24,000 nucleotides of DNA from an uncultured cyanobacterium (GCA_963711165.1 CAVQDG010000052.1:52927-76926); one strand, 5' to 3'; numbered from the stretch's first letter, positions 4,226-15,002 are shown. The notes: generated from the letters alone by a model not told the origin. A program made the numbers and translations.

Positions 4226-6238
4226 CTAAAAGCTAACTGATGAAGCAACATTTAACGGCAAAATAACTGTAAATGTTGTACCTACGCCAACCTCGCTATT
4301 AAATGTAATCTCACCTCCAGATAAATCCACCATCCGCTTAACAATAGACAATCCCAATCCAGTGCCTTGAATATTACCGACATTACTGGCGCGATGGAAT
4401 GATTCAAACAATTTTTCTTGGGATTCTTCAGGAATACCTATTCCATAGTCTTTTACTTGAAAAATTGCTTGCAAGTTTTGACAAGTTAGTAACAATTCAA
4501 CAATCCCTCCATTAGGAGAATACTTAATAGCATTTCCTAGTAAATTAGTTAGAATATGCAGGAGATTTTTTTCATCCATGACTGCATTTGTACATTCTCC
4601 TGTATTTGTAAAAACAATCTCATAATTATTACCAGTACTCAGTTTTATTTCGTTAACTACCTCAGAACAAAACTTTTGTAAATCCACCGCCGTTGGGTTT
4701 AACTCTAATTTCCCAGATTCAGATTTATTGATTGTTAAAATATCATCTAACAACCCAGTCATTCTGGTAGTTGCTGTTTCAATTTGCCCAAACAGTGAAG
4801 TCTTTTCTGATTCCGGTAACTTGTGTGAGTAGTATTTTAGTAACTCCGCAGAAGATAATATTGTTGCTAAAGGAGTCCGAAATTCATGGGAAGTTAAGGT
4901 AATAAAGCGAGACTTTAATTCATTAAGTTCCTTCTCCCTATTTAAAGCATTAATAATTTCCGTTTCTGCTTGCTTACGAGCAGTAATGTCTTGAAAGTTT
5001 AAGATAATGTAAAGAGTTTTTCCAGTATGATCCTTGACATTAGTAGCATCTATGAATACAGGAAAAATAGTTCCATCTTTACGGATGTGTAGGTTTTCAA
5101 GCATATATCTGTCATTAACCATAGCAAGACGAAAGTGTTCTGGGAAGCTAGGCAAAGCACTCGGAGCAAGCACCGTACTGAGGGAACATCCAGAAAGTTC
5201 TTCTACTGTATATCCGTGCATCGCAGCGAATGCGGGATTTATGATTTCTAAAACTTCACTACCTGGACTATTAACAACTAATCCTTGTCCGGTATGTTGA
5301 AAAATATCTGCCCACTGGCGTAACTTTCGCTCATATTCTTTGCGCTGGCTAATATCGAGGACGAAGCAGACACCTGTATCTGTTAATCCTTCTAATCTAC
5401 TTCCACCAATAAGAATAGGAACTCGGCTCCCATCAGAGCGAATCACTTCTTTTTCGTAGGGAGTAGCAACCCCAGTTTCAGCTATTTCATCAAGGGCTTT
5501 TTTATCTAAAGATAAATATTCTGGCGGAGTAAATTCCAACCAAGATAATTCTTTTATAAGTAAGTCATTTCGAGAATAGCCTAGTATTTTAAGAAAGGCA
5601 TCATTAACTTCTAAAACTTCTCCACCAATCTTCCAAAACAATATCCCGATCATATTTGAATCAAATATGCGGCGGAATCGAGCGGAATTTTCTTGCAAAG
5701 CTTCTTCAATTTGTTGGCGACGAATAATTTCTTGTTCTAACTTATTTACTGCATCCGTTAATTCAGAGGTGCGCGACTCCACTCGTTGTTCAAGGTCTTG
5801 TTTAATTTCTGTTAACTCCTGGTTTAATTCTTTAAGTTGTTGGTTAGCAATTTCTATTTGTTTCGGACTAGGTAACTCAAGTGCTTGGGGAATTAAGGGA
5901 AAAAGCCTGATAGCAGTATACACAGAAATTATTGCCGTCAATAATTTTACCGCTCCACTAAACCAGTAGTTAGGATGCCATAGTGTCCAAACTTCTATAA
6001 AGTGAGTAGTCCCGCAAGCAATAATGAATGCTCCGAATAAAAGAAATATCCAGTTAAATACTAAATCTTCCCTTTTGCGGACAAAATATATTAAAGTTGG
6101 AGGAATGACATAATATGCCAATCCAATCATAGAATCTGACACAATATGGAGGGCTACTAAGTTTGGTTTCCATAAATAGCAGTATCCATGTGGCATGAAA
6201 GGATTATTAGATATCAGACTTAATTCTGACAACATCAA
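4226..6238 (-). CDS. Membrane sensor histidine kinase: ETR1-like (ethylene-binding-domain-like) N-terminus, coiled coil, 2 PAS, HisKA, HATPase_c
   Basis: 670 aa. Three N-terminal TM helices carry the SD..AY..IP..LIYFV...FGAFIIACGTTH motif. A coiled coil (QQLKELNQELTEIKQDLEQ) and two PAS-like segments follow. Then come the H-box LTSHEFRTPL, the N-box LLGNAIKYSP, the G1 box DYGIGIP and the G2 box GTGLGLSIV. Confidence 0.92.
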   Translation of the reverse strand: MMLSELSLISNNPFMPHGYCYLWKPNLVALHIVSDSMIGLAYYVIPPTLIYFVRKREDLVFNWIFLLFGAFIIACGTTHFIEVWTLWHPNYWFSGAVKLLTAIISVYTAIRLFPLIPQALELPSPKQIEIANQQLKELNQELTEIKQDLEQRVESRTSELTDAVNKLEQEIIRRQQIEEALQENSARFRRIFDSNMIGILFWKIGGEVLEVNDAFLKILGYSRNDLLIKELSWLEFTPPEYLSLDKKALDEIAETGVATPYEKEVIRSDGSRVPILIGGSRLEGLTDTGVCFVLDISQRKEYERKLRQWADIFQHTGQGLVVNSPGSEVLEIINPAFAAMHGYTVEELSGCSLSTVLAPSALPSFPEHFRLAMVNDRYMLENLHIRKDGTIFPVFIDATNVKDHTGKTLYIILNFQDITARKQAETEIINALNREKELNELKSRFITLTSHEFRTPLATILSSAELLKYYSHKLPESEKTSLFGQIETATTRMTGLLDDILTINKSESGKLELNPTAVDLQKFCSEVVNEIKLSTGNNYEIVFTNTGECTNAVMDEKNLLHILTNLLGNAIKYSPNGGIVELLLTCQNLQAIFQVKDYGIGIPEESQEKLFESFHRASNVGNIQGTGLGLSIVKRMVDLSGGEITFNSEVGVGTTFTVILPLNVASSVSF

Positions 6239-9131: not shown

Positions 9132-10538
9132 CTACTTTTGATTATCTGGCAGATTTCGAGGTGGCACTTCCCGCCCCCGCTCAAACCGCCCCTCCAAATT
9201 TCCCAACCATAGCCATACAGAGCCTAAGCTTAAAGGAATAATCACCGAAGCAATTGTGACGAGCATCGTCGGTTGCCCAAAAGCCGAGTTAAACAAAGGT
9301 AGCATAGTTAATGCGATCGCACCGACAACCCCTATCCCCCACCTAATCCGTTTAATATTCCTAAGTGCCTGACTGCAACTAGCGCATTTAATTGTGTGGG
9401 AGTGATAACGGTCAAGTAAAACCTCTGTAGATAGAGGTGGCGAAAAGGTTTCCCCTGGAAATGGATCAGCTTGGTACTCATTCACCCACTTACGCAACGC
9501 GGTTACAAAAGTATCGGCGCGGGTGGGTAAATAAAATGCTTTAGCAAAATTAGCACCGCCACCCTTAGCTGCTAGATAACGCTCTTGGTAGTGCAGAAAG
9601 ATCTGATCATCTTCCAAAACGTTATTCTGTCCTAAATGCGAATACCAGCGCGGGGTAATTTTCAGGAATAAACCAGGCAACTTTGAGGAAAACTTAAATG
9701 GAAACCGCGCAAATATGCGACATTCTCCCTTGCGAATAGGAGTTGCGTAAACAACAGTTAAAGTTCTGCCAAATTGTTTCGATGTCAAGTCATGCCACAT
9801 TAAAGCTGGGGCAATAAAAGTTGTAAATTGTTTTCCCAGCGTACCTTTACGGGGACCTTCTTCCCAAATACCTTGAAAACCTTGCTTGTCGGCTTCTACA
9901 ACTTCCAATTCTACCGGAGCAGCATTAGTTCGATTGCCCACGGAACGATGATGAGTAAAGGGAACGTGACTAGCATCAAGAACATTTTCCAATAAAGTCA
10001 GGGCATCATAAGGTAAATCCCGAAAAGTGTTAAGGCAAATCCACTCATCAGGGGACTCCTCTATCGGTTCAATAATCGGAACTTTGACCTTAAAAGCGTT
10101 TTCCGGTTCACCTGGATAAACAAATAACAATCCTTGGCGTGTAACTGTAGGTAATGAGGCTACACAGGCTCGCTGGGATGCGTGGGCTTGGCTTTCTGCT
10201 TGCTGTTGAGGGATGCGATCGCACTTACCCTCTCCAGTAAACGCCCAACCGTGATAAGGGCATTCCAGCAACCCATCCTCAGCTATTCTGCCTTCCGAAA
10301 GTGGTGCTAGTCGATGAGGACATTGATCTGCCAACGCCCGCCAAGTATTTCCTTGTTTGTCCCACCAAATGACTAAATCTTGATCTAATAGTGTGAACTT
10401 ACTCGGTTTTGATTTGTCAAGATCCTCAATGTAGAAGACAGGATACCAAGCTTCTTTGCAGTCAAAACGAGTAGGGTCATTTCCACCAGCTAGAAACTGA
10501 TCGTTTTGTGTTGTTTCGATCCGCTTTTCAGCCAACAT
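9132..10538 (-). CDS. Rieske [2Fe-2S] non-heme iron oxygenase, PaO/Tic55/LLS1-like, membrane anchored
   Basis: 468 aa. The Rieske motif is CPHRLAPLSEG...CPYHGWAF. The mononuclear iron motif E-x3-D-x2-H-x4-H is ENVLDASHVPFTH. A C-terminal CxxC (CASCSQAL) and two C-terminal TM helices match the PaO-family layout. Confidence 0.9.
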   Translation of the reverse strand: MLAEKRIETTQNDQFLAGGNDPTRFDCKEAWYPVFYIEDLDKSKPSKFTLLDQDLVIWWDKQGNTWRALADQCPHRLAPLSEGRIAEDGLLECPYHGWAFTGEGKCDRIPQQQAESQAHASQRACVASLPTVTRQGLLFVYPGEPENAFKVKVPIIEPIEESPDEWICLNTFRDLPYDALTLLENVLDASHVPFTHHRSVGNRTNAAPVELEVVEADKQGFQGIWEEGPRKGTLGKQFTTFIAPALMWHDLTSKQFGRTLTVVYATPIRKGECRIFARFPFKFSSKLPGLFLKITPRWYSHLGQNNVLEDDQIFLHYQERYLAAKGGGANFAKAFYLPTRADTFVTALRKWVNEYQADPFPGETFSPPLSTEVLLDRYHSHTIKCASCSQALRNIKRIRWGIGVVGAIALTMLPLFNSAFGQPTMLVTIASVIIPLSLGSVWLWLGNLEGRFERGREVPPRNLPDNQK

Positions 10539-10721: not shown

Positions 10722-11972
10722 ATGGATAGTACTACAACCGTAAAACAAGCTGACACACCAGCAACCGCCCATGAAATTTTGGATGTACAACAAACAAATT
10801 GCTGCATTGTCGGTGGTGGACCTGCTGGTGCTGTTTTAGCCCTAATTTTGGCACGTCAAGGCATCCCCGTAATACTCTTGGAAGCTCACAAAGACTTTGA
10901 GCGTGACTTTCGGGGTGACACAATTCATCCCTCAGTCATGGAGATTATGGAAGAACTAGGATTAGCCGACCGACTCTTAGAGTTGCCCCATTCCAAGCTG
11001 CATCAATTGACTATTAATACAGAAAATGACTCAGTTACAGTAGCTGACTTCAGCCGCCTAAAAACTCGGTATCCCTACATTATGGTGACACCCCAAGTTA
11101 AATTTCTCAACTTCATCACCGAGGAAGCAAAACGTTATCCAAACTTTGAGTTAATCACAGGAGCGAATGTACAGGAAATAATTGAGGAAGATGGAATTAT
11201 TAAAGGTGTGCGATATCGTGGACATGGTGGTTGGCATGAAGTCAGGGCAGTGCTTACTGTCGGTGCAGATGGTCGTCACTCTCGCTTACGTCAATTAGCT
11301 GGCTTTGTGCCAATTGAAACATCACCACCAATGGACGTGCTATGGTTTCGTTTGCCTCGTAAAGCAGAGGAAGCTCAAGGTTTGAGTGGTCGGTTTGGTA
11401 AAGGTCATATTGTAGCTATGCTTGACCGTTCTGAACAATGGCAGATTGCCTATGTTATCCCCAAAGGTCGTTATCAACAGTTGCGGACGGCTGGTTTAGA
11501 GGCGCTACGCCACTCACTTGTGGAAGTTGTGCCAGAGTTGAGCGATAGAGTAGAACAACTGCAAGATTGGTCACAAGTTGCTTTTCTCTCAGTAGAGTCT
11601 AATCGTCTTCCGCATTGGTATCGCCCTGGACTACTGTTAATTGGAGATGCAGCCCATGTGATGTCGCCCGTTGGAGGTGTAGGGATTAACTATGCTATTC
11701 AGGATGCAGTTGTAGCTGCAAATGTTTTAAGTAATGATTTAAAAACTGGCAAAGTTAAAGTTAGTCACTTAGCTGCTGTACAGCGACAGAGAGAAATACC
11801 CACGCGGGTTATTCAAAAGTTTCAGTCTGTAGTCCAGCAGCGCATATTTGCTCGTGTTCTCAATTCAAATCCATCTTTTCAGCTACCAGCTTTTCTACGG
11901 ATACCGATTCTGCGTGACTTACCAGCTAAATTAATTGCTTTTGGCATTTGGAAAGTCCACGTTAACAATTAA
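10722..11972 (+). CDS. FAD-dependent monooxygenase (UbiH/PHBH-type flavoprotein hydroxylase family)
   Basis: 416 aa. It has an N-terminal dinucleotide fold (CCIVGGGPAGAVLALILARQG), the GADGRHS motif and the GDAAH...P.GG.G.N..I.DA motif (LIGDAAHVMSPVGGVGINYAIQDA). Confidence 0.9.
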   Translation: MDSTTTVKQADTPATAHEILDVQQTNCCIVGGGPAGAVLALILARQGIPVILLEAHKDFERDFRGDTIHPSVMEIMEELGLADRLLELPHSKLHQLTINTENDSVTVADFSRLKTRYPYIMVTPQVKFLNFITEEAKRYPNFELITGANVQEIIEEDGIIKGVRYRGHGGWHEVRAVLTVGADGRHSRLRQLAGFVPIETSPPMDVLWFRLPRKAEEAQGLSGRFGKGHIVAMLDRSEQWQIAYVIPKGRYQQLRTAGLEALRHSLVEVVPELSDRVEQLQDWSQVAFLSVESNRLPHWYRPGLLLIGDAAHVMSPVGGVGINYAIQDAVVAANVLSNDLKTGKVKVSHLAAVQRQREIPTRVIQKFQSVVQQRIFARVLNSNPSFQLPAFLRIPILRDLPAKLIAFGIWKVHVNN

Positions 11973-11997
11973 CAATTAACAATTATCAATTAACAAT
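11963..11997. repeat. Tandem heptamer tract (TAACAAT)x5, one variant unit TATCAAT
   Basis: The sequence is taacaat taacaat taacaat tatcaat taacaat. The last residues (VNN) and the TAA stop of the monooxygenase are encoded inside the tract. Confidence 0.88.
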
Positions 11998-12110
11998 TAC
12001 CCCCTTAGTGAAATTTCTGGTTTGAAATAACTAAGATTTTTTTGATTTTCCCTAACTTCACTTAGGGGCTGATAAGTAGCTCCACATTAAAAAAGATAAA
12101 ATGCCAATCT

Positions 12111-12150
12111 CCCCCTCCCCTTAATAAGGGGAGGGGGTTGGGGGGTGGGG
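12111..12150. repeat. GC-rich perfect hairpin of the same family as 9038-9071
   Basis: The hairpin ccccctcccc-ttaataa-ggggaggggg (12111-12137) is followed by ttggggggtggggt, the same stem core and ttgggg tail as 9038-9066. An imperfect 12-bp inverted repeat, ccccttagtgaa (12001-12012) / ttcacttagggg (12057-12068), lies upstream. Confidence 0.8.
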
Positions 12151-12385
12151 TAATGCGTTTAATTAGGTTGACCTACTTACCTATAGTAAAAATTTTGGGC
12201 AAAGAACATTATAACTAATTGATTGGTTAAGGAAGACAAAACTTGATTAAAAATAGTTAAGAAATATTAAATTTACCTAAAAACTACTAGATTAGCTGAC
12301 AATAAAGCCATTGGGAGGTAAAAGGTAAATTTCACTGATACTCTATTCCTACCATACAACACCATACTTCTAACTCTAACTAGCA

Positions 12386-13792
12386 ATGGCTGCGAAATCT
12401 TTGTTCTCGTTTTCTGCTGGTAAATCAGACCGTCAGGAATTAGATATCAAGCTGTGGTTGGTTTTAATTACAGGATTAGCCGTCACATTCATCATCTATG
12501 CCTTAGTACTTTCTATTAAAAGCAGCTTCTTAGGTGTACTTTTATACGAGCGTGGATTTACTCAAGTTCTAGCCATTCTGTTTGGGGCAATGGTGATGAG
12601 TATTACTACTTTAAAGCTAGTGAAAATTCAAACCGAATTAAAGGCTCTGAGAAAGGATCTTATTCCTCAGAGCGTTTCCCTAGAAGACCCCAAATCGCTC
12701 CAAGTTAAAAATCTTCAGCAATCCTTAACCAACGAGAAAAGTTTATTAGCTCGTCGTTGTAGTCGGGTTCTCGCTGCATATATAATTTCAGGAAATCGCC
12801 AAGCTGCAACTGAATTCGCTATTGAAGATTCGACCTTTTATAGCAGCACCTCAGACACTTCCTATTCCGTAGCTCGTATTCTCGTTTGGGCAATTCCCCT
12901 GTTAGGATTTATCGGGACAGTTGTTGGGATTAGCGGTGCTGTCAATGGGTTTAGTGGATTTCTGGAACAATCTGGTGATATTGAACAAATTAAGCAAGGC
13001 ATTGGTGGTGTCACCAGTGGGTTAGCAGTTGCATTTGACACCACGCTACTAGCTTTGTTTATCAGTGTGTTGGTTATGATTCCCCTAGTGTTAGTCGAGC
13101 GTCAGGAATCACGGTTATTGCTGGCAATTGATATCTACATCAATGACCAACTCTTTCCCCGCCTCAGAGAGTCTGAATCTCTCAATCAGGCGATGGTTGA
13201 CGATGCGATTGTTCAGGCATTTAAAAAACACCTTCCTTCCCCAGAGGCACTGATTCAACCTGCTCAAGAGTATGCTAAACAAGCCGCAGAAGCTTTAGCT
13301 AAAGGTTTTGTGGCTGAGGTGGGTAAAGTTCAGATGACAACCAACAAGTTGATGCAGCAGATGAATGCTTACAATCAAATGGCTGTCAAAGACCGAGAAA
13401 ACTTTCTTGCGACTTTAACCCAACAACAACAAACCAGCCAGGATTTAGTGCAAGAAATCCAGTTAATCAGCACTGCTATTCAAGAGAATTATCAAAATGT
13501 TAACTACAATTTTAATCAACATACCGAACATATCAGTAAAGAATTACAACAAGCGGCAATGGCTCTAGATAGTCGGATTGCTGCATTACAAGATTGCGCG
13601 ACTCAAGTAGCTAGGATTGCTGAACTCCAGCATAGTCTAGACCAGAGTTTGCAAGCTTTAGAACAAACTGCACAACTAGAGCGAGTGTTGGGTGAAGTGA
13701 GAACAAATCTGGCGATGTTGAAACCAGTCCTTCAACAACTTAACAAACCACGCCGAATAACTTTAGTTGAAGCTGAGGATAATTTAGCTTGA
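12386..13792 (+). CDS. MotA/TolQ/ExbB-family proton-channel protein with a long C-terminal coiled-coil tail
   Basis: 468 aa with four predicted TM helices (about aa 22-44, 58-79, 163-186 and 211-238). The last two carry MotA_ExbB-type motifs, PLLGFIGTVVGI and GLAVAFDTTLLALFISVLVMIPLV. Residues about 239-468 are Q/A/L/E-rich with no hydrophobic segment and look helical or coiled-coil. Confidence 0.8.
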   Translation: MAAKSLFSFSAGKSDRQELDIKLWLVLITGLAVTFIIYALVLSIKSSFLGVLLYERGFTQVLAILFGAMVMSITTLKLVKIQTELKALRKDLIPQSVSLEDPKSLQVKNLQQSLTNEKSLLARRCSRVLAAYIISGNRQAATEFAIEDSTFYSSTSDTSYSVARILVWAIPLLGFIGTVVGISGAVNGFSGFLEQSGDIEQIKQGIGGVTSGLAVAFDTTLLALFISVLVMIPLVLVERQESRLLLAIDIYINDQLFPRLRESESLNQAMVDDAIVQAFKKHLPSPEALIQPAQEYAKQAAEALAKGFVAEVGKVQMTTNKLMQQMNAYNQMAVKDRENFLATLTQQQQTSQDLVQEIQLISTAIQENYQNVNYNFNQHTEHISKELQQAAMALDSRIAALQDCATQVARIAELQHSLDQSLQALEQTAQLERVLGEVRTNLAMLKPVLQQLNKPRRITLVEAEDNLA

Positions 13793-13795
13793 GCT

Positions 13796-14260
13796 ATGCC
13801 AAGAAAAAGATTCCCCGCTCGGTCAACAATTGAACCTGAACTTTTCCCCTTCCTCTCAATTTTGGTTTGCACCATTGGGGTATTGATTCTATTAATTATT
13901 GTTATGACTTCTCAAACTATGAGTAGCCAGAGAAAGATTACTATTGTCGCCAAAAGCGAGAACGGACAAAATGGCAGCAAACAGCCCCGCTATATTGAGT
14001 GTCGTGGGGATGGGATTGTTCTGTATCCTAGCAAAGAATTTGTGACTCGCTCAGAGATTAGCAGTAACTCATCTCTATTACAAAACTTATTGCAAGAAAT
14101 CCAAGCTAATCAAGATACTCAATATTTAATTTTAGCAGTTAGACCTGATGGAATTGAGGTATTTAAGATGGTCAGAGTTCTAGTGGAATCACAAGGGATT
14201 AATATTGGCTACGAACCGATTGATGAGGGATGGGATTTAAATATTGAAACAGCACCCTAG
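13796..14260 (+). CDS. ExbD/TolR-like single-pass membrane protein (paralog 1; Ser in place of the TM Asp)
   Basis: 154 aa. The ATG lies 3 nt after the upstream stop (TGA gct ATG). A basic N-terminus precedes a TM segment FPFLSILVCTIGVLILLIIVM, which resembles E. coli ExbD TPFIDVMLVLLIIFM but has S21 where ExbD has Asp. The C-terminal pattern YLILAVRPDGIEVFKMVRVLVESQGINIGYEP resembles the ExbD/TolR periplasmic fold. Confidence 0.62.
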   Translation: MPRKRFPARSTIEPELFPFLSILVCTIGVLILLIIVMTSQTMSSQRKITIVAKSENGQNGSKQPRYIECRGDGIVLYPSKEFVTRSEISSNSSLLQNLLQEIQANQDTQYLILAVRPDGIEVFKMVRVLVESQGINIGYEPIDEGWDLNIETAP

Positions 14261-14306
14261 CTTGCTCCAAAACCTATTAATTTCCCCAAAGCTTTCAGGC
14301 ACTTAA

Positions 14307-15002
14307 ATGAGAAGAATTCGTTCTTTCAGATCTCACCGACCACAGCAGAACCTAGATTCCTTCTTAGATATCTTGACTAATACAGTTGGGGTATTGATGT
14401 TTATTAGCCTTTTCATCACCTTAGTAGCCGTCCAATCGAGTACCATAGTTCGCACTCCTTTGGTGACTAAAACGGAGAAAAAAGGACATTTTTTTGAGGT
14501 GCGCGGCAATCAAGTTATGTATCTTGATGATGCTTCAGTCGATGAACAAATCAGTGAGTTTGTTAGGAACTTACCGACTTGCACTAGACCAAGCTATAGT
14601 TTAGATGCTGGCGATAGCTATCTTCAGGAATTAACCAGCTATCAAAATTGTCTATCAGATACAAGCGAACAATTGAAGGAGTTTAGAGCGCAAACCAAGT
14701 ATTACGAAGTCGAGTTACTTGATATAGAATCAGTGTCATGGCAATACACCCCCAAATCCGATATTGCTGGAGAAGCAACTCAAGAATTAGCTAAATCTAA
14801 TTCTGAGTATCGACAGGCTTTGGCGCAACTAAATCCCCAGCAAGATTATCTCGCATTTCTGGTGCGACCCGATAGTTTTGTCGCTTTCCGCCAAGCTAGA
14901 GAAATCGCATGGAAAGCGAAATTTGATGTAGGTTGGGAACCCAAAACACCAGATGCCCCGATTATTTTTGGTTCTGGTGGCAGAGCGGTAGGAGTACAGT
15001 AA
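14307..15002 (+). CDS. ExbD/TolR-like single-pass membrane protein (paralog 2; TM Asp retained, about 80-aa insertion)
   Basis: 231 aa. A basic N-terminus precedes SFLDILTNTVGVLMFISLFI, where D21 (gat, 14367-14369) aligns with the ExbD/TolR/MotB channel Asp. HFFEVRGNQVMYL and YLAFLVRPDSFVAFRQAREIAWKAKFDVGWEP align with the preceding gene product. The extra central segment is aa about 85-175. Confidence 0.62.
   Translation: MRRIRSFRSHRPQQNLDSFLDILTNTVGVLMFISLFITLVAVQSSTIVRTPLVTKTEKKGHFFEVRGNQVMYLDDASVDEQISEFVRNLPTCTRPSYSLDAGDSYLQELTSYQNCLSDTSEQLKEFRAQTKYYEVELLDIESVSWQYTPKSDIAGEATQELAKSNSEYRQALAQLNPQQDYLAFLVRPDSFVAFRQAREIAWKAKFDVGWEPKTPDAPIIFGSGGRAVGVQ

What the first reader, a model, noticed from the sequence alone, without database searches (positions are those of the whole stretch)
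12386..15002. Operon of a MotA/ExbB-like channel protein plus two ExbD/TolR-like paralogs with no known partner: candidate uncharacterised ion-driven membrane motor
Seen in the sequence: three same-strand genes are tightly linked (3-nt and 46-nt gaps) and sit behind a 413-bp non-coding leader. Gene A has four TM helices, and the last two carry MotA_ExbB-type motifs (PLLGFIGTVVGI; AFDTTLLALFISVLVMIPLV). Genes B and C each have a basic N-terminus, one TM helix resembling ExbD TPFIDVMLVLLIIFM, and an ExbD/TolR-like C-terminal pattern (YLxxxVRPD....F.......G.EP). Established knowledge: MotAB, ExbBD, TolQR, AglRQS, GldLM and ZorAB are 5:2-type ion-powered rotary modules, each coupled to a specific output such as the flagellar rotor, TonB, TolA/Pal, gliding adhesins or the Zorya effectors. 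Inference: this window has no TonB-like protein, TonB-dependent receptor, TolA/Pal, OmpA-like peptidoglycan anchor or ZorC/D-like gene. The neighbours are unrelated: an FAD monooxygenase upstream and a convergent gyrA-family gene downstream. One stator-like channel subunit with two distinct plug subunits recalls Myxococcus AglR-AglQ-AglS and the ExbB-ExbD1-ExbD2 arrangements. The long cytoplasmic tail on subunit A instead recalls ZorA. This combination does not match any characterised system I know, so the output of the motor is unknown.
Basis: partly seen in the sequence, partly recalled or inferred. Interest (0 to 1): 0.85.

Follow-up and report, generated by a model that had tools for sequence, protein, structure and literature searches.

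The report
Divergent ExbB–ExbD-like three-gene membrane motor
These three genes are a real operon for a membrane ion-driven motor related to ExbB/ExbD, TolQ/TolR and ZorA. The family is widespread but unnamed, its two small subunits are unequal because only one keeps the proton-carrying aspartate, and it is probably the cyanobacterial 'third exbB-exbD cluster' already linked to iron starvation rather than something wholly unknown.

Summary
Genes A (12386-13792), B (13796-14260) and C (14307-15002) are real, tightly linked and conserved as a trio in every complete related locus.

A passes Pfam MotA_ExbB (25.5 bits; cut-off 22.9), and its model matches ExbB, ZorA and TolQ. B's periplasmic domain matches TolR and ExbD. 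C is a paralog of B (hhalign 98.5%) with an ~80-residue insertion carrying two invariant cysteines.

B and C match no curated Pfam, NCBIfam or PADLOC family. B has an invariant Ser where ExbD, TolR and ZorB have the essential Asp. C keeps that Asp plus a second one (DxxxD). This split, and the A-B-C order, persist in distant high-GC, probably non-cyanobacterial relatives.

No TonB, TonB-dependent receptor, TolA/Pal, OmpA-like or ZorC/D gene lies in the window, and no fourth gene is conserved elsewhere.

"No characterised counterpart" is overstated. Synechocystis sll0477-0479 has the same layout (ExbB-like plus two hypotheticals) and is one iron-starvation-induced transcript treated as an exbB-exbD cluster. 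I could not test orthology.

Every Nostocales and Microcystis copy outside this window sits on a plasmid or in a defence or mobile region, with clear horizontal transfer. A Zorya-like defence role therefore stays open.

Verdict: new variant of a known kind; interest moderate.

The parts
11973..12385 (+). 413-bp non-coding leader upstream of gene A. It holds TTAACAA x5.4 (11962-11999, overlapping the stop of the upstream gene) and a perfect 13-nt-arm hairpin (12111-12137).
   Evidence: Sequence read; tandem repeat; inverted repeat. No Rfam family matched. No + strand promoter-like site was found inside the leader beyond two weak ones at its 5' edge.
12386..13792 (+). Gene A: 468-aa MotA/TolQ/ExbB-family channel subunit with 4 TM segments and a long C-terminal helical tail.
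   Evidence: Pfam PF01618 25.5 bits against cut-off 22.9. Foldseek against the PDB gives ExbB 5sv0, ZorA 8qyh/8qyd and TolQ 9ddm at probability about 1.0. Hydropathy. 570 homologs.
12896..12931 (+). A residues 171-182, PLLGFIGTVVGI: the pore-lining helix (TM3) with invariant P171, G177, T178 and V179.
   Evidence: Invariant columns of the 40-sequence alignment A3; translation checked.
13031..13090 (+). A residues 216-235, AFDTTLLALFISVLVMIPLV: TM4 with invariant D218, T219, T220 and P233.
   Evidence: The D218-to-P233 spacing of 15 residues equals the E176-to-Pro spacing I recall for E. coli ExbB; that comparison rests on memory and was not tested.
13163..13789 (+). A residues 260-468: Gln/Ala/Leu-rich cytoplasmic tail, modelled as one long helix (286-451, about 25 nm if straight).
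   Evidence: AlphaFold model (tail pLDDT 40-75, low as a monomer). Composition. The ZorA_2 HMM alignment runs through residues 58-427.
13796..14260 (+). Gene B: 154-aa single-pass protein with an ExbD/TolR-fold periplasmic domain and no transmembrane Asp.
   Evidence: Model pLDDT 80.6. The top three PDB fold hits are TolR 5by4 and ExbD 8vgd_B and 8p9r_A (TM-score 0.69-0.70 for the two ExbD hits and 0.51 for TolR, normalised to the target; probability 0.99 or higher). Pfam ExbD scores only 15.1 bits.
13838..13909 (+). B TM helix ELFPFLSILVCTIGVLILLIIVMT. The S21 codon (13856-13858) sits at the position of ExbD's Asp.
   Evidence: F17, P18, F19, L20 and S21 are invariant in 40 sequences. Ser is found in 53 of 62 aligned B proteins, including distant ones.
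14307..15002 (+). Gene C: 231-aa paralog of B with the same TM register and C-terminal domain, plus an insertion.
   Evidence: hhalign of the B family against the C family: probability 98.5%, E 1.9e-15. 473 homologs, all labelled 'hypothetical' and none with a Pfam domain.
14349..14435 (+). C TM helix NLDSFLDILTNTVGVLMFISLFITLVAVQ, with D17 (14355-14357) and D21 (14367-14369).
   Evidence: N15 to D21 are invariant. The DxxxD pair is present in all 36 aligned C proteins and in 15 distant ones read by eye.
14532..14786 (+). C-specific insertion (about residues 76-160) holding the two invariant cysteines C92 and C115.
   Evidence: Seen as the gap in the hhalign alignment. Cysteine invariance; cysteine positions. 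A disulfide is inferred, not shown.

Best explanation
The three genes encode a self-contained ion-driven membrane motor of the 5:2 type. It belongs to a distinct, widely conserved but unnamed branch of the MotA/ExbB/TolQ/ZorA superfamily.

Proposed assembly. Five copies of A would form the ring. A has 4 TM segments, an ExbB/ZorA-like core with invariant Thr and Asp in the two pore-lining helices, and a cytoplasmic helical tail of about 200 residues. The axle would be one B plus one C rather than a homodimer. B and C are ExbD/TolR-fold paralogs whose TM helices share one register. Only C carries the proton-binding carboxylate (D21, plus D17 one helical turn away). B has an invariant Ser at that position.

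Proposed working. Proton flow through the A-C interface would turn the ring around the B-C axle. The periplasmic domains of B and C, including C's cysteine-bearing insertion, would carry the work or signal to the envelope. The A tail would do the same on the cytoplasmic side.

Proposed role. The trio is most likely the counterpart of Synechocystis sll0477-0479, the 'third exbB-exbD cluster', which is induced by iron starvation and was studied with the other two clusters for iron uptake. The most probable role is therefore energising an envelope process under iron limitation. The direct partner (a TonB encoded elsewhere or something else) is unknown.

Shown: gene reality, operon layout, family membership of A, fold of B, B/C paralogy, the Ser/Asp split, its deep conservation, and the absence of a conserved fourth gene.

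Inferred: A5:B1:C1 stoichiometry, rotation, orthology to sll0477-0479, and the iron-related role.

My sub-confidences: a motor of this superfamily 0.9; a heteromeric B-C axle 0.6; orthology to sll0477-0479 0.7; an iron-uptake role in this organism 0.35.
For: - A passes the Pfam MotA_ExbB cut-off.
- The A model (TM core pLDDT 85-95) matches ExbB, ZorA, TonB-ExbBD and TolQ chains at probability 0.99-1.0.
- T178, D218, T219 and T220 are invariant in A.
- The B model's three best PDB hits are TolR and ExbD.
- The B and C profiles align at 98.5% probability.
- B and C always occur together and in the same order after A. This holds in cyanobacteria and in distant loci with 26-37% identity and 50-73% GC.
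- B has Ser in 53 of 62 aligned proteins. C has DxxxD in all 51 examined.
- The TM helices of both B and C are nearly invariant across these distances, as expected for helices packed inside a ring rather than facing lipid.
- No recurrent fourth gene exists.
- The gaps are 3 and 46 nt with no + strand terminator between the genes.
- Synechocystis sll0477-0478-0479 is listed as 'ExbB-like | HP | HP', forms one transcription unit and is induced 6.7-fold without iron. It lies two unit numbers from futA2 and is named exbB/exbD3/exbD4.
- JGI annotates B-family members as ExbD.
Against: - Orthology to sll0477-0479 rests on matching gene layout and annotation only. No sequence comparison was possible.
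- The ExbD link for B and C is below the threshold of every sequence test, and the Foldseek E-values are modest (3.7e-3 to 2.3e-2).
- A has 4 TM segments and a long tail. To my knowledge ExbB has 3 and no tail, so coupling to TonB in the ExbB manner is not assured.
- The family is patchy in Nostocales.
- The family also sits on plasmids and in defence regions, which fits poorly with a core nutrient-uptake role.
- No iron-related gene lies next to the trio in any of the roughly 40 contexts I examined.
- Stoichiometry was not modelled.
Confidence: 0.5

Rival explanations
1. The trio is a Zorya-like anti-phage or anti-plasmid module, or an envelope-breach sensor. The motor would sense perturbation of the envelope during infection. 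It would then either signal through the A tail to effectors encoded elsewhere or collapse the membrane potential itself (abortive infection). The trio moves between cyanobacteria as an accessory cassette.
For: - The best named matches of A outside Pfam are ZorA models: NCBIfam ZorA_2 at E 2.7e-9 across residues 58-427, and PADLOC ZorA1 at E 7.8e-8.
- ZorA chains are among the top fold hits.
- Every Nostocales or Microcystis copy examined, other than the window's, lies in a mobile or defence setting:
  - On the A. cylindrica plasmid it sits between a type III-B Cmr module and viperin plus a deoxynucleoside kinase.
  - The same Cmr plus two CARF-HEPN genes lie immediately upstream in two Dolichospermum genomes and in GCA_014698825.1, where a relaxase and MobC follow.
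  - In Cylindrospermopsis it has Cmr, CARF-HEPN, DUF3800 and HicAB on one side and GmrSD on the other.
  - On the Microcystis plasmid its neighbours are a methylase, NTase+SLATT, a helicase, DUF559, NUDIX, HNH and GIY-YIG genes.
  - In Tolypothrix it follows an ISL3 transposase, HTH regulators and a PD-T4-6-like kinase with E 9e-99.
- A decayed copy sits in a type I restriction, toxin-antitoxin and IS region of Chroococcidiopsis.
- Horizontal transfer is clear. The Microcystis and Cylindrospermopsis A proteins are 88% identical, against 51-52% between Cylindrospermopsis and other Nostocales.
Against: - No effector gene travels with the trio.
- All ZorA scores are far below family cut-offs.
- B and C have an ExbD/TolR fold, not ZorB's peptidoglycan-binding domain (ZorB features).
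- The A tail is about 200 residues, against about 500 in E. coli ZorA.
- B and C match nothing in PADLOC.
- 130 neighbours of 28 other cyanobacterial loci gave only generic PADLOC hits, and their commonest Pfam families were housekeeping ones.
- The window itself and the Lyngbya, Myxosarcina, Lusitaniella and Spirulina loci are ordinary chromosomal settings.
- No copy was found in 2.9 million viral contigs.
- Defence regions also collect unrelated accessory genes.
Confidence: 0.25
2. The trio is a Tol-like envelope or cell-wall maintenance motor. B and C would act as TolR-like stators that reach the peptidoglycan, helping to keep the outer layers attached or remodelled. To my knowledge cyanobacteria lack a classical Tol-Pal system.
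For: - TolR is the single best fold hit of B.
- Some chromosomal copies have wall-related neighbours. In Spirulina, MltA and a PG_binding_1 protein end 26 bp before A. In Lusitaniella there are an NlpC/P60 protein upstream and a Mur ligase nearby. In L006 a MurG-like GT28 gene lies downstream. In L005 an SLH-domain protein is nearby.
- In distant relatives B carries long Pro/Gly-rich spacers and repeated periplasmic domains, as if to span a wide periplasm.
Against: - No TolA, TolB or Pal gene is adjacent anywhere.
- Wall-related neighbours occur in only 4 of about 40 loci and are not the same genes.
- Patchy distribution, plasmid carriage and decay argue against an essential envelope function.
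- The cytoplasmic tail of A has no counterpart in TolQ.
Confidence: 0.1
3. The trio is an ancillary membrane module of type III-B CRISPR-Cas, functionally coupled to Cmr/CARF signalling in the lineages where it directly follows the CARF-HEPN genes.
For: - In four genomes the order is Cmr2-3-4-5-6, CARF-HEPN, CARF-HEPN, then A-B-C, all on one strand with short gaps.
- A second trio lineage, only 51% identical, also lies within 5-8 kb of a Cmr plus CARF-HEPN locus.
Against: - A, B and C contain no CARF, SAVED or other nucleotide-sensing domain.
- The window and most loci have no cas gene nearby.
- In Cylindrospermopsis unrelated genes lie between Cmr and the trio.
- Two co-locations inside defence regions can arise by chance.
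Confidence: 0.05
4. The trio is an inactive or decaying relic. Because B lacks the essential Asp, the complex would not conduct ions or turn.
For: - The Asp is described as universally conserved and essential in this superfamily, and B has Ser instead.
- One decayed copy exists.
Against: - The Ser, the flanking FPFL motif and the whole B TM helix are invariant across hundreds of sequences and into distant phyla. The same holds for C's DxxxD and A's pore residues. This pattern indicates purifying selection on a working assembly.
Confidence: 0.03

Closest known systems
Synechocystis sp. PCC 6803 sll0477-sll0478-sll0479 ('ExbB-like | HP | HP'; also called exbB, exbD3, exbD4)
   Same: Three same-strand genes: one ExbB-like gene followed by two small proteins that annotation does not recognise. 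They form a single transcription unit in a cyanobacterium. This is the only model-organism cluster with the same layout.
   Different: Sequence orthology was not tested here. The Synechocystis cluster is induced by iron starvation and lies near futA2; nothing comparable is known for this window. The Ser/Asp split and the A tail are not mentioned in any of the four papers I read that name or concern this cluster.
ExbB-ExbD (Ton system) and TolQ-TolR (Tol-Pal system)
   Same: The A core fold matches. B has an ExbD/TolR periplasmic fold. The TM register xPF(L/I)(D/S)(I/V)(L/M) is shared, C's D21 corresponds to the ExbD/TolR Asp, and there is an acidic residue plus Thr in the last TM of A.
   Different: A has 4 TM segments and a tail of about 200 residues. 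There are two different small subunits instead of one. B lacks the Asp. B and C fall below the Pfam ExbD cut-off. No TonB, TonB-dependent receptor, TolA, TolB or Pal is linked.
Zorya ZorA-ZorB
   Same: A MotA/ExbB-type ring subunit with a long helical cytoplasmic tail. ZorA models give the best named HMM matches. ZorA is among the top fold hits. Several copies lie in defence regions.
   Different: Scores are far below the ZorA cut-offs. The partner subunits have an ExbD/TolR fold, not a ZorB-type peptidoglycan-binding domain. There is no ZorC, D, E, F or G. The tail is less than half as long. The axle is heteromeric with one Asp-bearing subunit, whereas both ZorB copies carry Asp26.
[quoted passage not shown]
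   Same: One ring subunit with two different TolR-like subunits in one cluster (for the PVC clusters; AglRQS from my own knowledge).
   Different: Those clusters travel with gliding genes or with vWA-domain force transducers and a TPR gene. None of these accompanies the trio. No sequence comparison with AglQ/AglS was made.

Membership tests
MotA/TolQ/ExbB proton-channel superfamily (Pfam PF01618; ring subunit of 5:2 motors) | Profile match above the curated cut-off | tested here: met
   25.5 bits against a cut-off of 22.9, residues 153-238. The margin is narrow.
MotA/TolQ/ExbB proton-channel superfamily (Pfam PF01618; ring subunit of 5:2 motors) | Fold of the membrane core like solved ring subunits | tested here: met
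   Foldseek against the PDB: ExbB 5sv0, ZorA 8qyh/8qyd, TonB-ExbBD 9ddo and TolQ 9ddm/9kpz, probability 0.99-1.0, TM-score 0.45-0.61 normalised to the target. Model core pLDDT is 85-95.
MotA/TolQ/ExbB proton-channel superfamily (Pfam PF01618; ring subunit of 5:2 motors) | Conserved polar residues (Thr/Ser) in the two pore-lining helices | tested here: met
   T178, T219 and T220 (and D218) are invariant in 40 family members. Their contact with the axle Asp was not modelled.
MotA/TolQ/ExbB proton-channel superfamily (Pfam PF01618; ring subunit of 5:2 motors) | Pentamer enclosing two small-subunit helices | not testable with these tools
ExbD/TolR family (Pfam PF02472) | Profile match above the curated cut-off | tested here: not met
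   B scores 15.1 bits against 25.4; C has no hit. TIGR tolR scores 18 bits against 127. Family profiles of B and C find no ExbD or TolR in the PDB by sequence.
ExbD/TolR family (Pfam PF02472) | One N-terminal TM helix followed by the ExbD/TolR alpha/beta periplasmic domain | tested here: met
   For B, the top three PDB fold hits are TolR 5by4 and ExbD 8vgd_B and 8p9r_A (probability 0.99 or higher; rmsd 2.9-3.0 A over 81-82 columns for the ExbD hits). C was not modelled; it is linked through hhalign to B (98.5%).
ExbD/TolR family (Pfam PF02472) | Essential Asp in the TM helix (ExbD D25, TolR D23, ZorB D26) | tested here: inconclusive
   C meets it: D21 is invariant, and D17 is an additional invariant Asp. 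B does not: S21 is invariant. The register against ExbD is taken by eye from the PF(I/L)D motif.
Ton system (ExbB-ExbD-TonB with TonB-dependent receptors) | TonB and a TonB-dependent receptor linked or present | tested here: not met
   None is in the 24-kb window, and none recurs next to the trio in about 95 loci. Presence elsewhere in the genome cannot be tested.
Zorya (ZorA-ZorB plus ZorC/D, ZorE or ZorF/G) | ZorA family model above cut-off | tested here: not met
   NCBIfam ZorA_2 scores 36.6 bits against 100. PADLOC ZorA1 scores 29 bits.
Zorya (ZorA-ZorB plus ZorC/D, ZorE or ZorF/G) | ZorB with a C-terminal peptidoglycan-binding domain | tested here: not met
   B and C have no OmpA-type hit. 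B folds like ExbD/TolR.
Zorya (ZorA-ZorB plus ZorC/D, ZorE or ZorF/G) | Adjacent soluble effector genes | tested here: not met
   None is in the window, and no fourth gene is conserved.
Synechocystis sll0477-0479-type cluster | Layout of ExbB-like gene plus two unrecognised small genes in one transcription unit | tested here: met
   The layout in the window matches the description 'ExbB-like | HP | HP', TU3083.
Synechocystis sll0477-0479-type cluster | Sequence orthology of all three proteins | not testable with these tools
   No Synechocystis sequence could be reached.
Synechocystis sll0477-0479-type cluster | Induction by iron starvation | not tested
   There are no expression data for this organism. 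No explicit Fur-box consensus sequence was available to scan with.

The most novel reading that the evidence does not exclude
The trio is a complete, mobile, effector-less relative of Zorya. It would be a tail-bearing 5:2 motor with an obligatorily asymmetric axle (one Asp-bearing and one Ser-bearing subunit) that protects cyanobacteria against phage or plasmid entry. In some lineages it would work alongside type III-B CRISPR-Cas. Its iron-starvation induction in Synechocystis would then be a regulatory side-effect rather than its function.
Probability: 0.2. Interest if true: 0.8.

Novelty: new variant of a known kind. Interest (0 to 1): 0.5.

Why it matters
Ion-driven 5:2 motors (flagellar stators, Ton, Tol, gliding motors, Zorya) are thought to work by two identical axle subunits whose aspartates take turns binding protons. 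This family would be a natural exception. Its axle is built from two different subunits and only one carries the carboxylate. The arrangement is conserved from cyanobacteria to distant high-GC bacteria, so it tests that model directly.

The finding would also explain why cyanobacteria carry an 'ExbB-like' cluster whose partners annotation cannot recognise, sometimes in genomes without TonB. It gives names and defining motifs to two protein families (B and C) that are now listed only as hypothetical.

If the defence reading is right, it adds a minimal Zorya relative to the immune repertoire of bloom-forming cyanobacteria.

If the trio is simply the Synechocystis third exbB-exbD cluster, the practical gain is smaller: a better description of a partly studied system.

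Tried and rejected
- Sequence-profile searches of the PDB with the B and C family alignments found no ExbD, TolR or MotB. The link had to come from predicted structure.
- I tried several routes to a Synechocystis or Anabaena PCC 7120 sequence to test orthology. The Jiang 2015 and Qiu 2018 papers are not held. No supplements are held for the transcriptome paper. The only paper naming alr4587 gives no sequence or neighbours. The AlphaFold-database fold library was not available.
- Anabaena 'exbB2' (alr4587) is probably not this family, because none of the source-named hits among the best 120 is from Nostoc PCC 7120. This remains unproven.
- Neighbour clustering over 96 loci found no conserved fourth gene. 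The largest cluster is generic signalling proteins.
- Bulk neighbour scans gave no clear defence enrichment. The PADLOC hits were kinase, ATPase and histidine-kinase look-alikes.
- Viral contigs and viral structure libraries gave nothing.
- No riboswitch or other Rfam family was found in the leader.
- The promoter and terminator scans were uninformative, with fewer sites than in shuffled sequence.
- A Fur-box scan was abandoned because the source paper gives the motif only as a logo.
- The vWA-linked tolQ plus two-tolR clusters described in 2025 were considered and rejected as the same system, since no vWA or TPR partner accompanies the trio.

Full report
**1. What is in the sequence**

- The gaps between them are 3 nt and 46 nt.
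- The leader after the upstream gene is 413 bp.
- The stop of C is 38 bp from the stop of a convergent gene.
- The quoted motifs are present at A171-182 and A216-235 and in the C-terminal parts of B and C.
- Hydropathy gives four membrane segments in A (18-46, 57-81, 161-187, 208-240) and one each in B and C.
- No terminator-like site separates the genes on the + strand.

These are genes, not chance ORFs. A has 570 database homologs, B 306 and C 473. The best hits outside the source genome are 70-77% identical.

**2. What the window does and does not contain**

I scanned the 14 other substantial ORFs against Pfam. They encode:
- a GGDEF response regulator and an Hpt protein;
- two ABC components;
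- an ethylene-receptor-type histidine kinase;
- a hydrolase;
- a PaO-type Rieske oxygenase;
- the FAD_binding_3 monooxygenase;
- a GyrA-family protein;
- a response regulator, a TPR protein, another histidine kinase and an HlyD-type protein.

There is no TonB, TonB-dependent receptor, TolA/Pal, OmpA-like anchor or Zorya effector.

**3. Identity of A**

- A passes the Pfam MotA_ExbB cut-off narrowly (25.5 against 22.9 bits).
- Its best named matches elsewhere are ZorA models, all far below cut-off: NCBIfam ZorA_2 at 36.6 bits against 100, aligned over residues 58-427, and PADLOC ZorA1 at 29 bits.
- An AlphaFold model built on 40 family members has a confident membrane core (pLDDT 85-95) and a single long helix at 286-451 of low confidence.
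- Foldseek against the PDB returns ExbB, ZorA, TonB-ExbBD and TolQ chains at probability 0.99-1.0, and flagellar MotA/PomA lower down.
- In the family alignment P171, G177, T178, V179, D218, T219, T220 and P233 are invariant.

A is therefore a ring subunit of the 5:2 motor superfamily. It is roughly equidistant from ExbB/TolQ and ZorA, with a four-segment topology and a tail of about 200 residues.

**4. Identity of B and C**

By sequence alone neither is an ExbD.
- B scores 15.1 bits against a cut-off of 25.4, and C scores nothing.
- Family profiles of B and C find no ExbD or TolR among PDB sequences.

Structure settles the matter for B.
- The B model (pLDDT 80.6) has TolR 5by4 and the ExbD periplasmic domains 8vgd_B and 8p9r_A as its three best PDB matches.
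- Those matches have probability 0.99 or higher. The two ExbD matches have TM-score 0.69-0.70 and rmsd 2.9-3.0 A; TolR 5by4 has TM-score 0.51 and rmsd 8.1 A.

C is tied to B by profile-profile comparison (98.5%, E 1.9e-15).
- The alignment covers the N-terminus, the TM helix and the C-terminal domain.
- It leaves an insertion of about 80 residues in C that holds two invariant cysteines, C92 and C115.

So "two ExbD/TolR-like paralogs" is correct as a statement of fold and descent. Neither is a member of the curated ExbD family.

**5.

The TM helices of B and C share one register (xLxxFLxILxxTxGxL).
- At the position where ExbD, TolR and ZorB have the aspartate, B has an invariant serine (FPFLS21).
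- C has an invariant aspartate (D21) plus a second one a helical turn earlier (D17).
- The Zorya structure paper calls that aspartate "universally conserved and mechanistically essential".

I tested how far this split extends.
- A profile of the B family finds 2,997 cluster representatives at E up to 0.001 in a 1.84-billion-protein library.
- These include many proteins of 400-950 residues with repeated B-like domains and no Pfam domain.
- One such locus, at 64.5% GC, carries a MotA_ExbB gene (448 aa). It is followed by a 789-aa B-type protein (FPFLAVL, no Asp) and then a 356-aa C-type protein (FDSFLDVV).
- A metagenome scan found 549 relatives of A.
- In the 80 metagenome loci kept, the A-B-C order recurs both in close relatives (43-54% identity) and in distant ones (26-37% identity, 50-73% GC).
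- Across all fetched loci (genomes, plasmids and metagenomes), B has Ser in 53 of 62 aligned proteins. Five of the exceptions are an extra B-sized paralog with the C-type helix.
- C has DxxxD in all 36 aligned proteins and in 15 more read by eye.

Two different, co-inherited axle helices that are this conserved argue that both sit inside the ring, as a B-C heterodimer. This is inference; no complex was modelled.

**6. No fixed partner**

Clustering all neighbours within about 7-9 kb across 96 loci gave no recurrent fourth gene. The largest cluster is generic signalling proteins.

**7. Link to a studied system**

- It forms a single transcription unit (TU3083) and is induced 6.7-fold by iron depletion.
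- It lies two unit numbers from futA2.
- A later paper names the genes exbB, exbD3 and exbD4 and cites the 2015 ISME J study of exbB-exbD clusters.
- From my own knowledge of that study's abstract, the three clusters are redundant, jointly essential and needed for inorganic iron uptake. The paper itself is not held.

The layout is the one seen here. Two partners that annotation cannot recognise are what B and C would look like. I could not obtain the sequences, so orthology is probable (I put it at about 0.7) but untested.

Anabaena "exbB2" (alr4587), whose mutant fails to grow without fixed nitrogen, is probably a different gene.

**8. Genomic settings**

These fall into two groups.

*Ordinary chromosomal settings*
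- the window itself;
- Lyngbya, Myxosarcina, Lusitaniella and Spirulina;
- two further genome-derived loci, L005 (a Pleurocapsa genome bin) and L006 (a Cyanophyceae genome bin);
- the bulk of 28 cyanobacterial loci. Their 130 neighbours gave only generic PADLOC hits, and their commonest Pfam families were housekeeping ones.

A few of these have wall-related neighbours: MltA plus PG_binding_1, NlpC/P60, a MurG-like gene and an SLH protein.

*Mobile or defence settings (every Nostocales or Microcystis copy other than the window's)*
- A. cylindrica plasmid pANACY.03: between a type III-B Cmr module and viperin.
- Two Dolichospermum genomes and GCA_014698825.1: the same Cmr2-6 module plus two CARF-HEPN genes directly upstream. 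In the last genome a relaxase follows.
- Cylindrospermopsis: Cmr, CARF-HEPN, DUF3800, HicAB and GmrSD.
- A Microcystis plasmid: methylase, NTase+SLATT, helicase, DUF559, NUDIX, HNH and GIY-YIG genes.
- Tolypothrix FACHB-123: an ISL3 transposase, HTH regulators and a PD-T4-6-like kinase.
- Chroococcidiopsis PCC 7203: only C and a B fragment remain, inside a restriction, toxin-antitoxin and IS region.

The Microcystis and Cylindrospermopsis A proteins are 88% identical, although Cylindrospermopsis is only 51-52% identical to other Nostocales copies. This is clear horizontal transfer. No copy occurs in viral contigs.

**9. Weighing the explanations**

The motor identity is well supported. The physiological output is not.
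- The iron-limitation reading has the only experimental data behind it, but it depends on untested orthology and on no iron-related neighbour in any locus.
- The defence reading explains the plasmid and island settings, the transfer, the ZorA-like tail and the ZorA HMM hits. It lacks any effector, any PADLOC match for B or C, and any enrichment outside two orders.
- A Tol-like envelope role and a CRISPR-ancillary role each have a few supporting observations and stronger objections.
- An inactive relic is excluded by the conservation pattern.

I commit to a self-contained 5:2-type motor with a heteromeric B-C axle. It is most likely the counterpart of the Synechocystis third exbB-exbD cluster, working in an envelope process under iron limitation (overall confidence 0.5). 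Defence is the main rival (0.25).

**10. Novelty and score**

The parts are of known kinds and the cluster is probably already on record in a model organism, so it is not categorically new. Three things make it a new variant of a known kind: the conserved Asp/Ser asymmetry of the axle, the tail on a ring subunit paired with ExbD-fold partners, and the absence of any curated family for B and C. In the literature I could search I found none of these described for this cluster.

A specialist in these motors would find the asymmetry surprising and testable. A generalist would see a divergent ExbBD cluster. Interest is 0.5.

Noticed in passing
L098:1-10696, L007:41-11580, L003:203-10581, L004:158-10590: In four Nostocales genomes or plasmids the trio directly follows, on the same strand, a complete type III-B module (Cmr2-3-4-5-6) and two CARF-HEPN (Csx1/Csm6-type) genes. 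The gap to A is only about 50-130 nt. In L098 a relaxase and MobC come next.
   Followed up: partly
L008:8998-11598 versus L010:9995-12601: The trio on a Microcystis aeruginosa plasmid and the one on the Cylindrospermopsis raciborskii chromosome are 88% identical (A protein). This is far closer than either is to other Nostocales copies (51-53%), indicating recent transfer between bloom-forming cyanobacteria of different orders.
   Followed up: partly
L016:9670-10720: Chroococcidiopsis thermalis PCC 7203 keeps only a 115-aa B fragment and an intact C, with no A within 10 kb. They sit among type I restriction genes, several toxin-antitoxin pairs and transposases. This is a decayed copy.
   Followed up: no
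L048:1151-2792, L030:3848-5055, L032:2257-3188: Some metagenome loci carry an extra B-sized paralog whose TM helix is of the C type (NLESFLDILTCTIG, with Asp). This gives A-B-B'-C in L048; in L030 the only B-sized gene between A and C is of this type, and L032 has two such genes and then runs off the contig.
   Followed up: no
P0382, P0390, P0396, P0470, P0486; L012:8001-10370: There are many proteins of 400-950 residues with a B-type TM helix, a coiled coil, long Pro/Gly-rich spacers and two to four repeated B-like periplasmic domains. None has a Pfam domain, and taxonomy was not determined.
   Followed up: partly
window 11962-11999 and 12111-12137: A heptamer array TTAACAA x5.4 overlaps the end of the FAD monooxygenase gene. 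A perfect hairpin (CCCCCTCCCCTTA / TAAGGGGAGGGGG, 1-nt loop) followed by GGGGTGG repeats lies in the leader of gene A. These may be repeat elements, a terminator of the upstream gene or an insertion scar.
   Followed up: partly
window 4226-6238 (- strand): A histidine kinase has an N-terminal ethylene-receptor-type domain (ETR1_N, E 6.7e-42) followed by PAS domains.
   Followed up: no
window 9132-10538 (- strand): A Rieske plus PaO (pheophorbide a oxygenase-type) protein with C-terminal membrane segments lies divergent from the FAD monooxygenase.
   Followed up: no
L097:5071-9499: In Tolypothrix FACHB-123 the trio is preceded by two small HTH (XRE-type) genes flanking a 592-aa Ser/Thr kinase. 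The kinase matches the PADLOC PD-T4-6 model at E 9e-99, and an ISL3 transposase lies further upstream.
   Followed up: no
L015:7322-9975: In Spirulina subsalsa an MltA-type lytic transglycosylase and a 436-aa PG_binding_1 protein sit immediately upstream of A on the same strand, with a 26-bp gap. Lusitaniella has an NlpC/P60 protein in the same position (L014:8903-9616).
   Followed up: no
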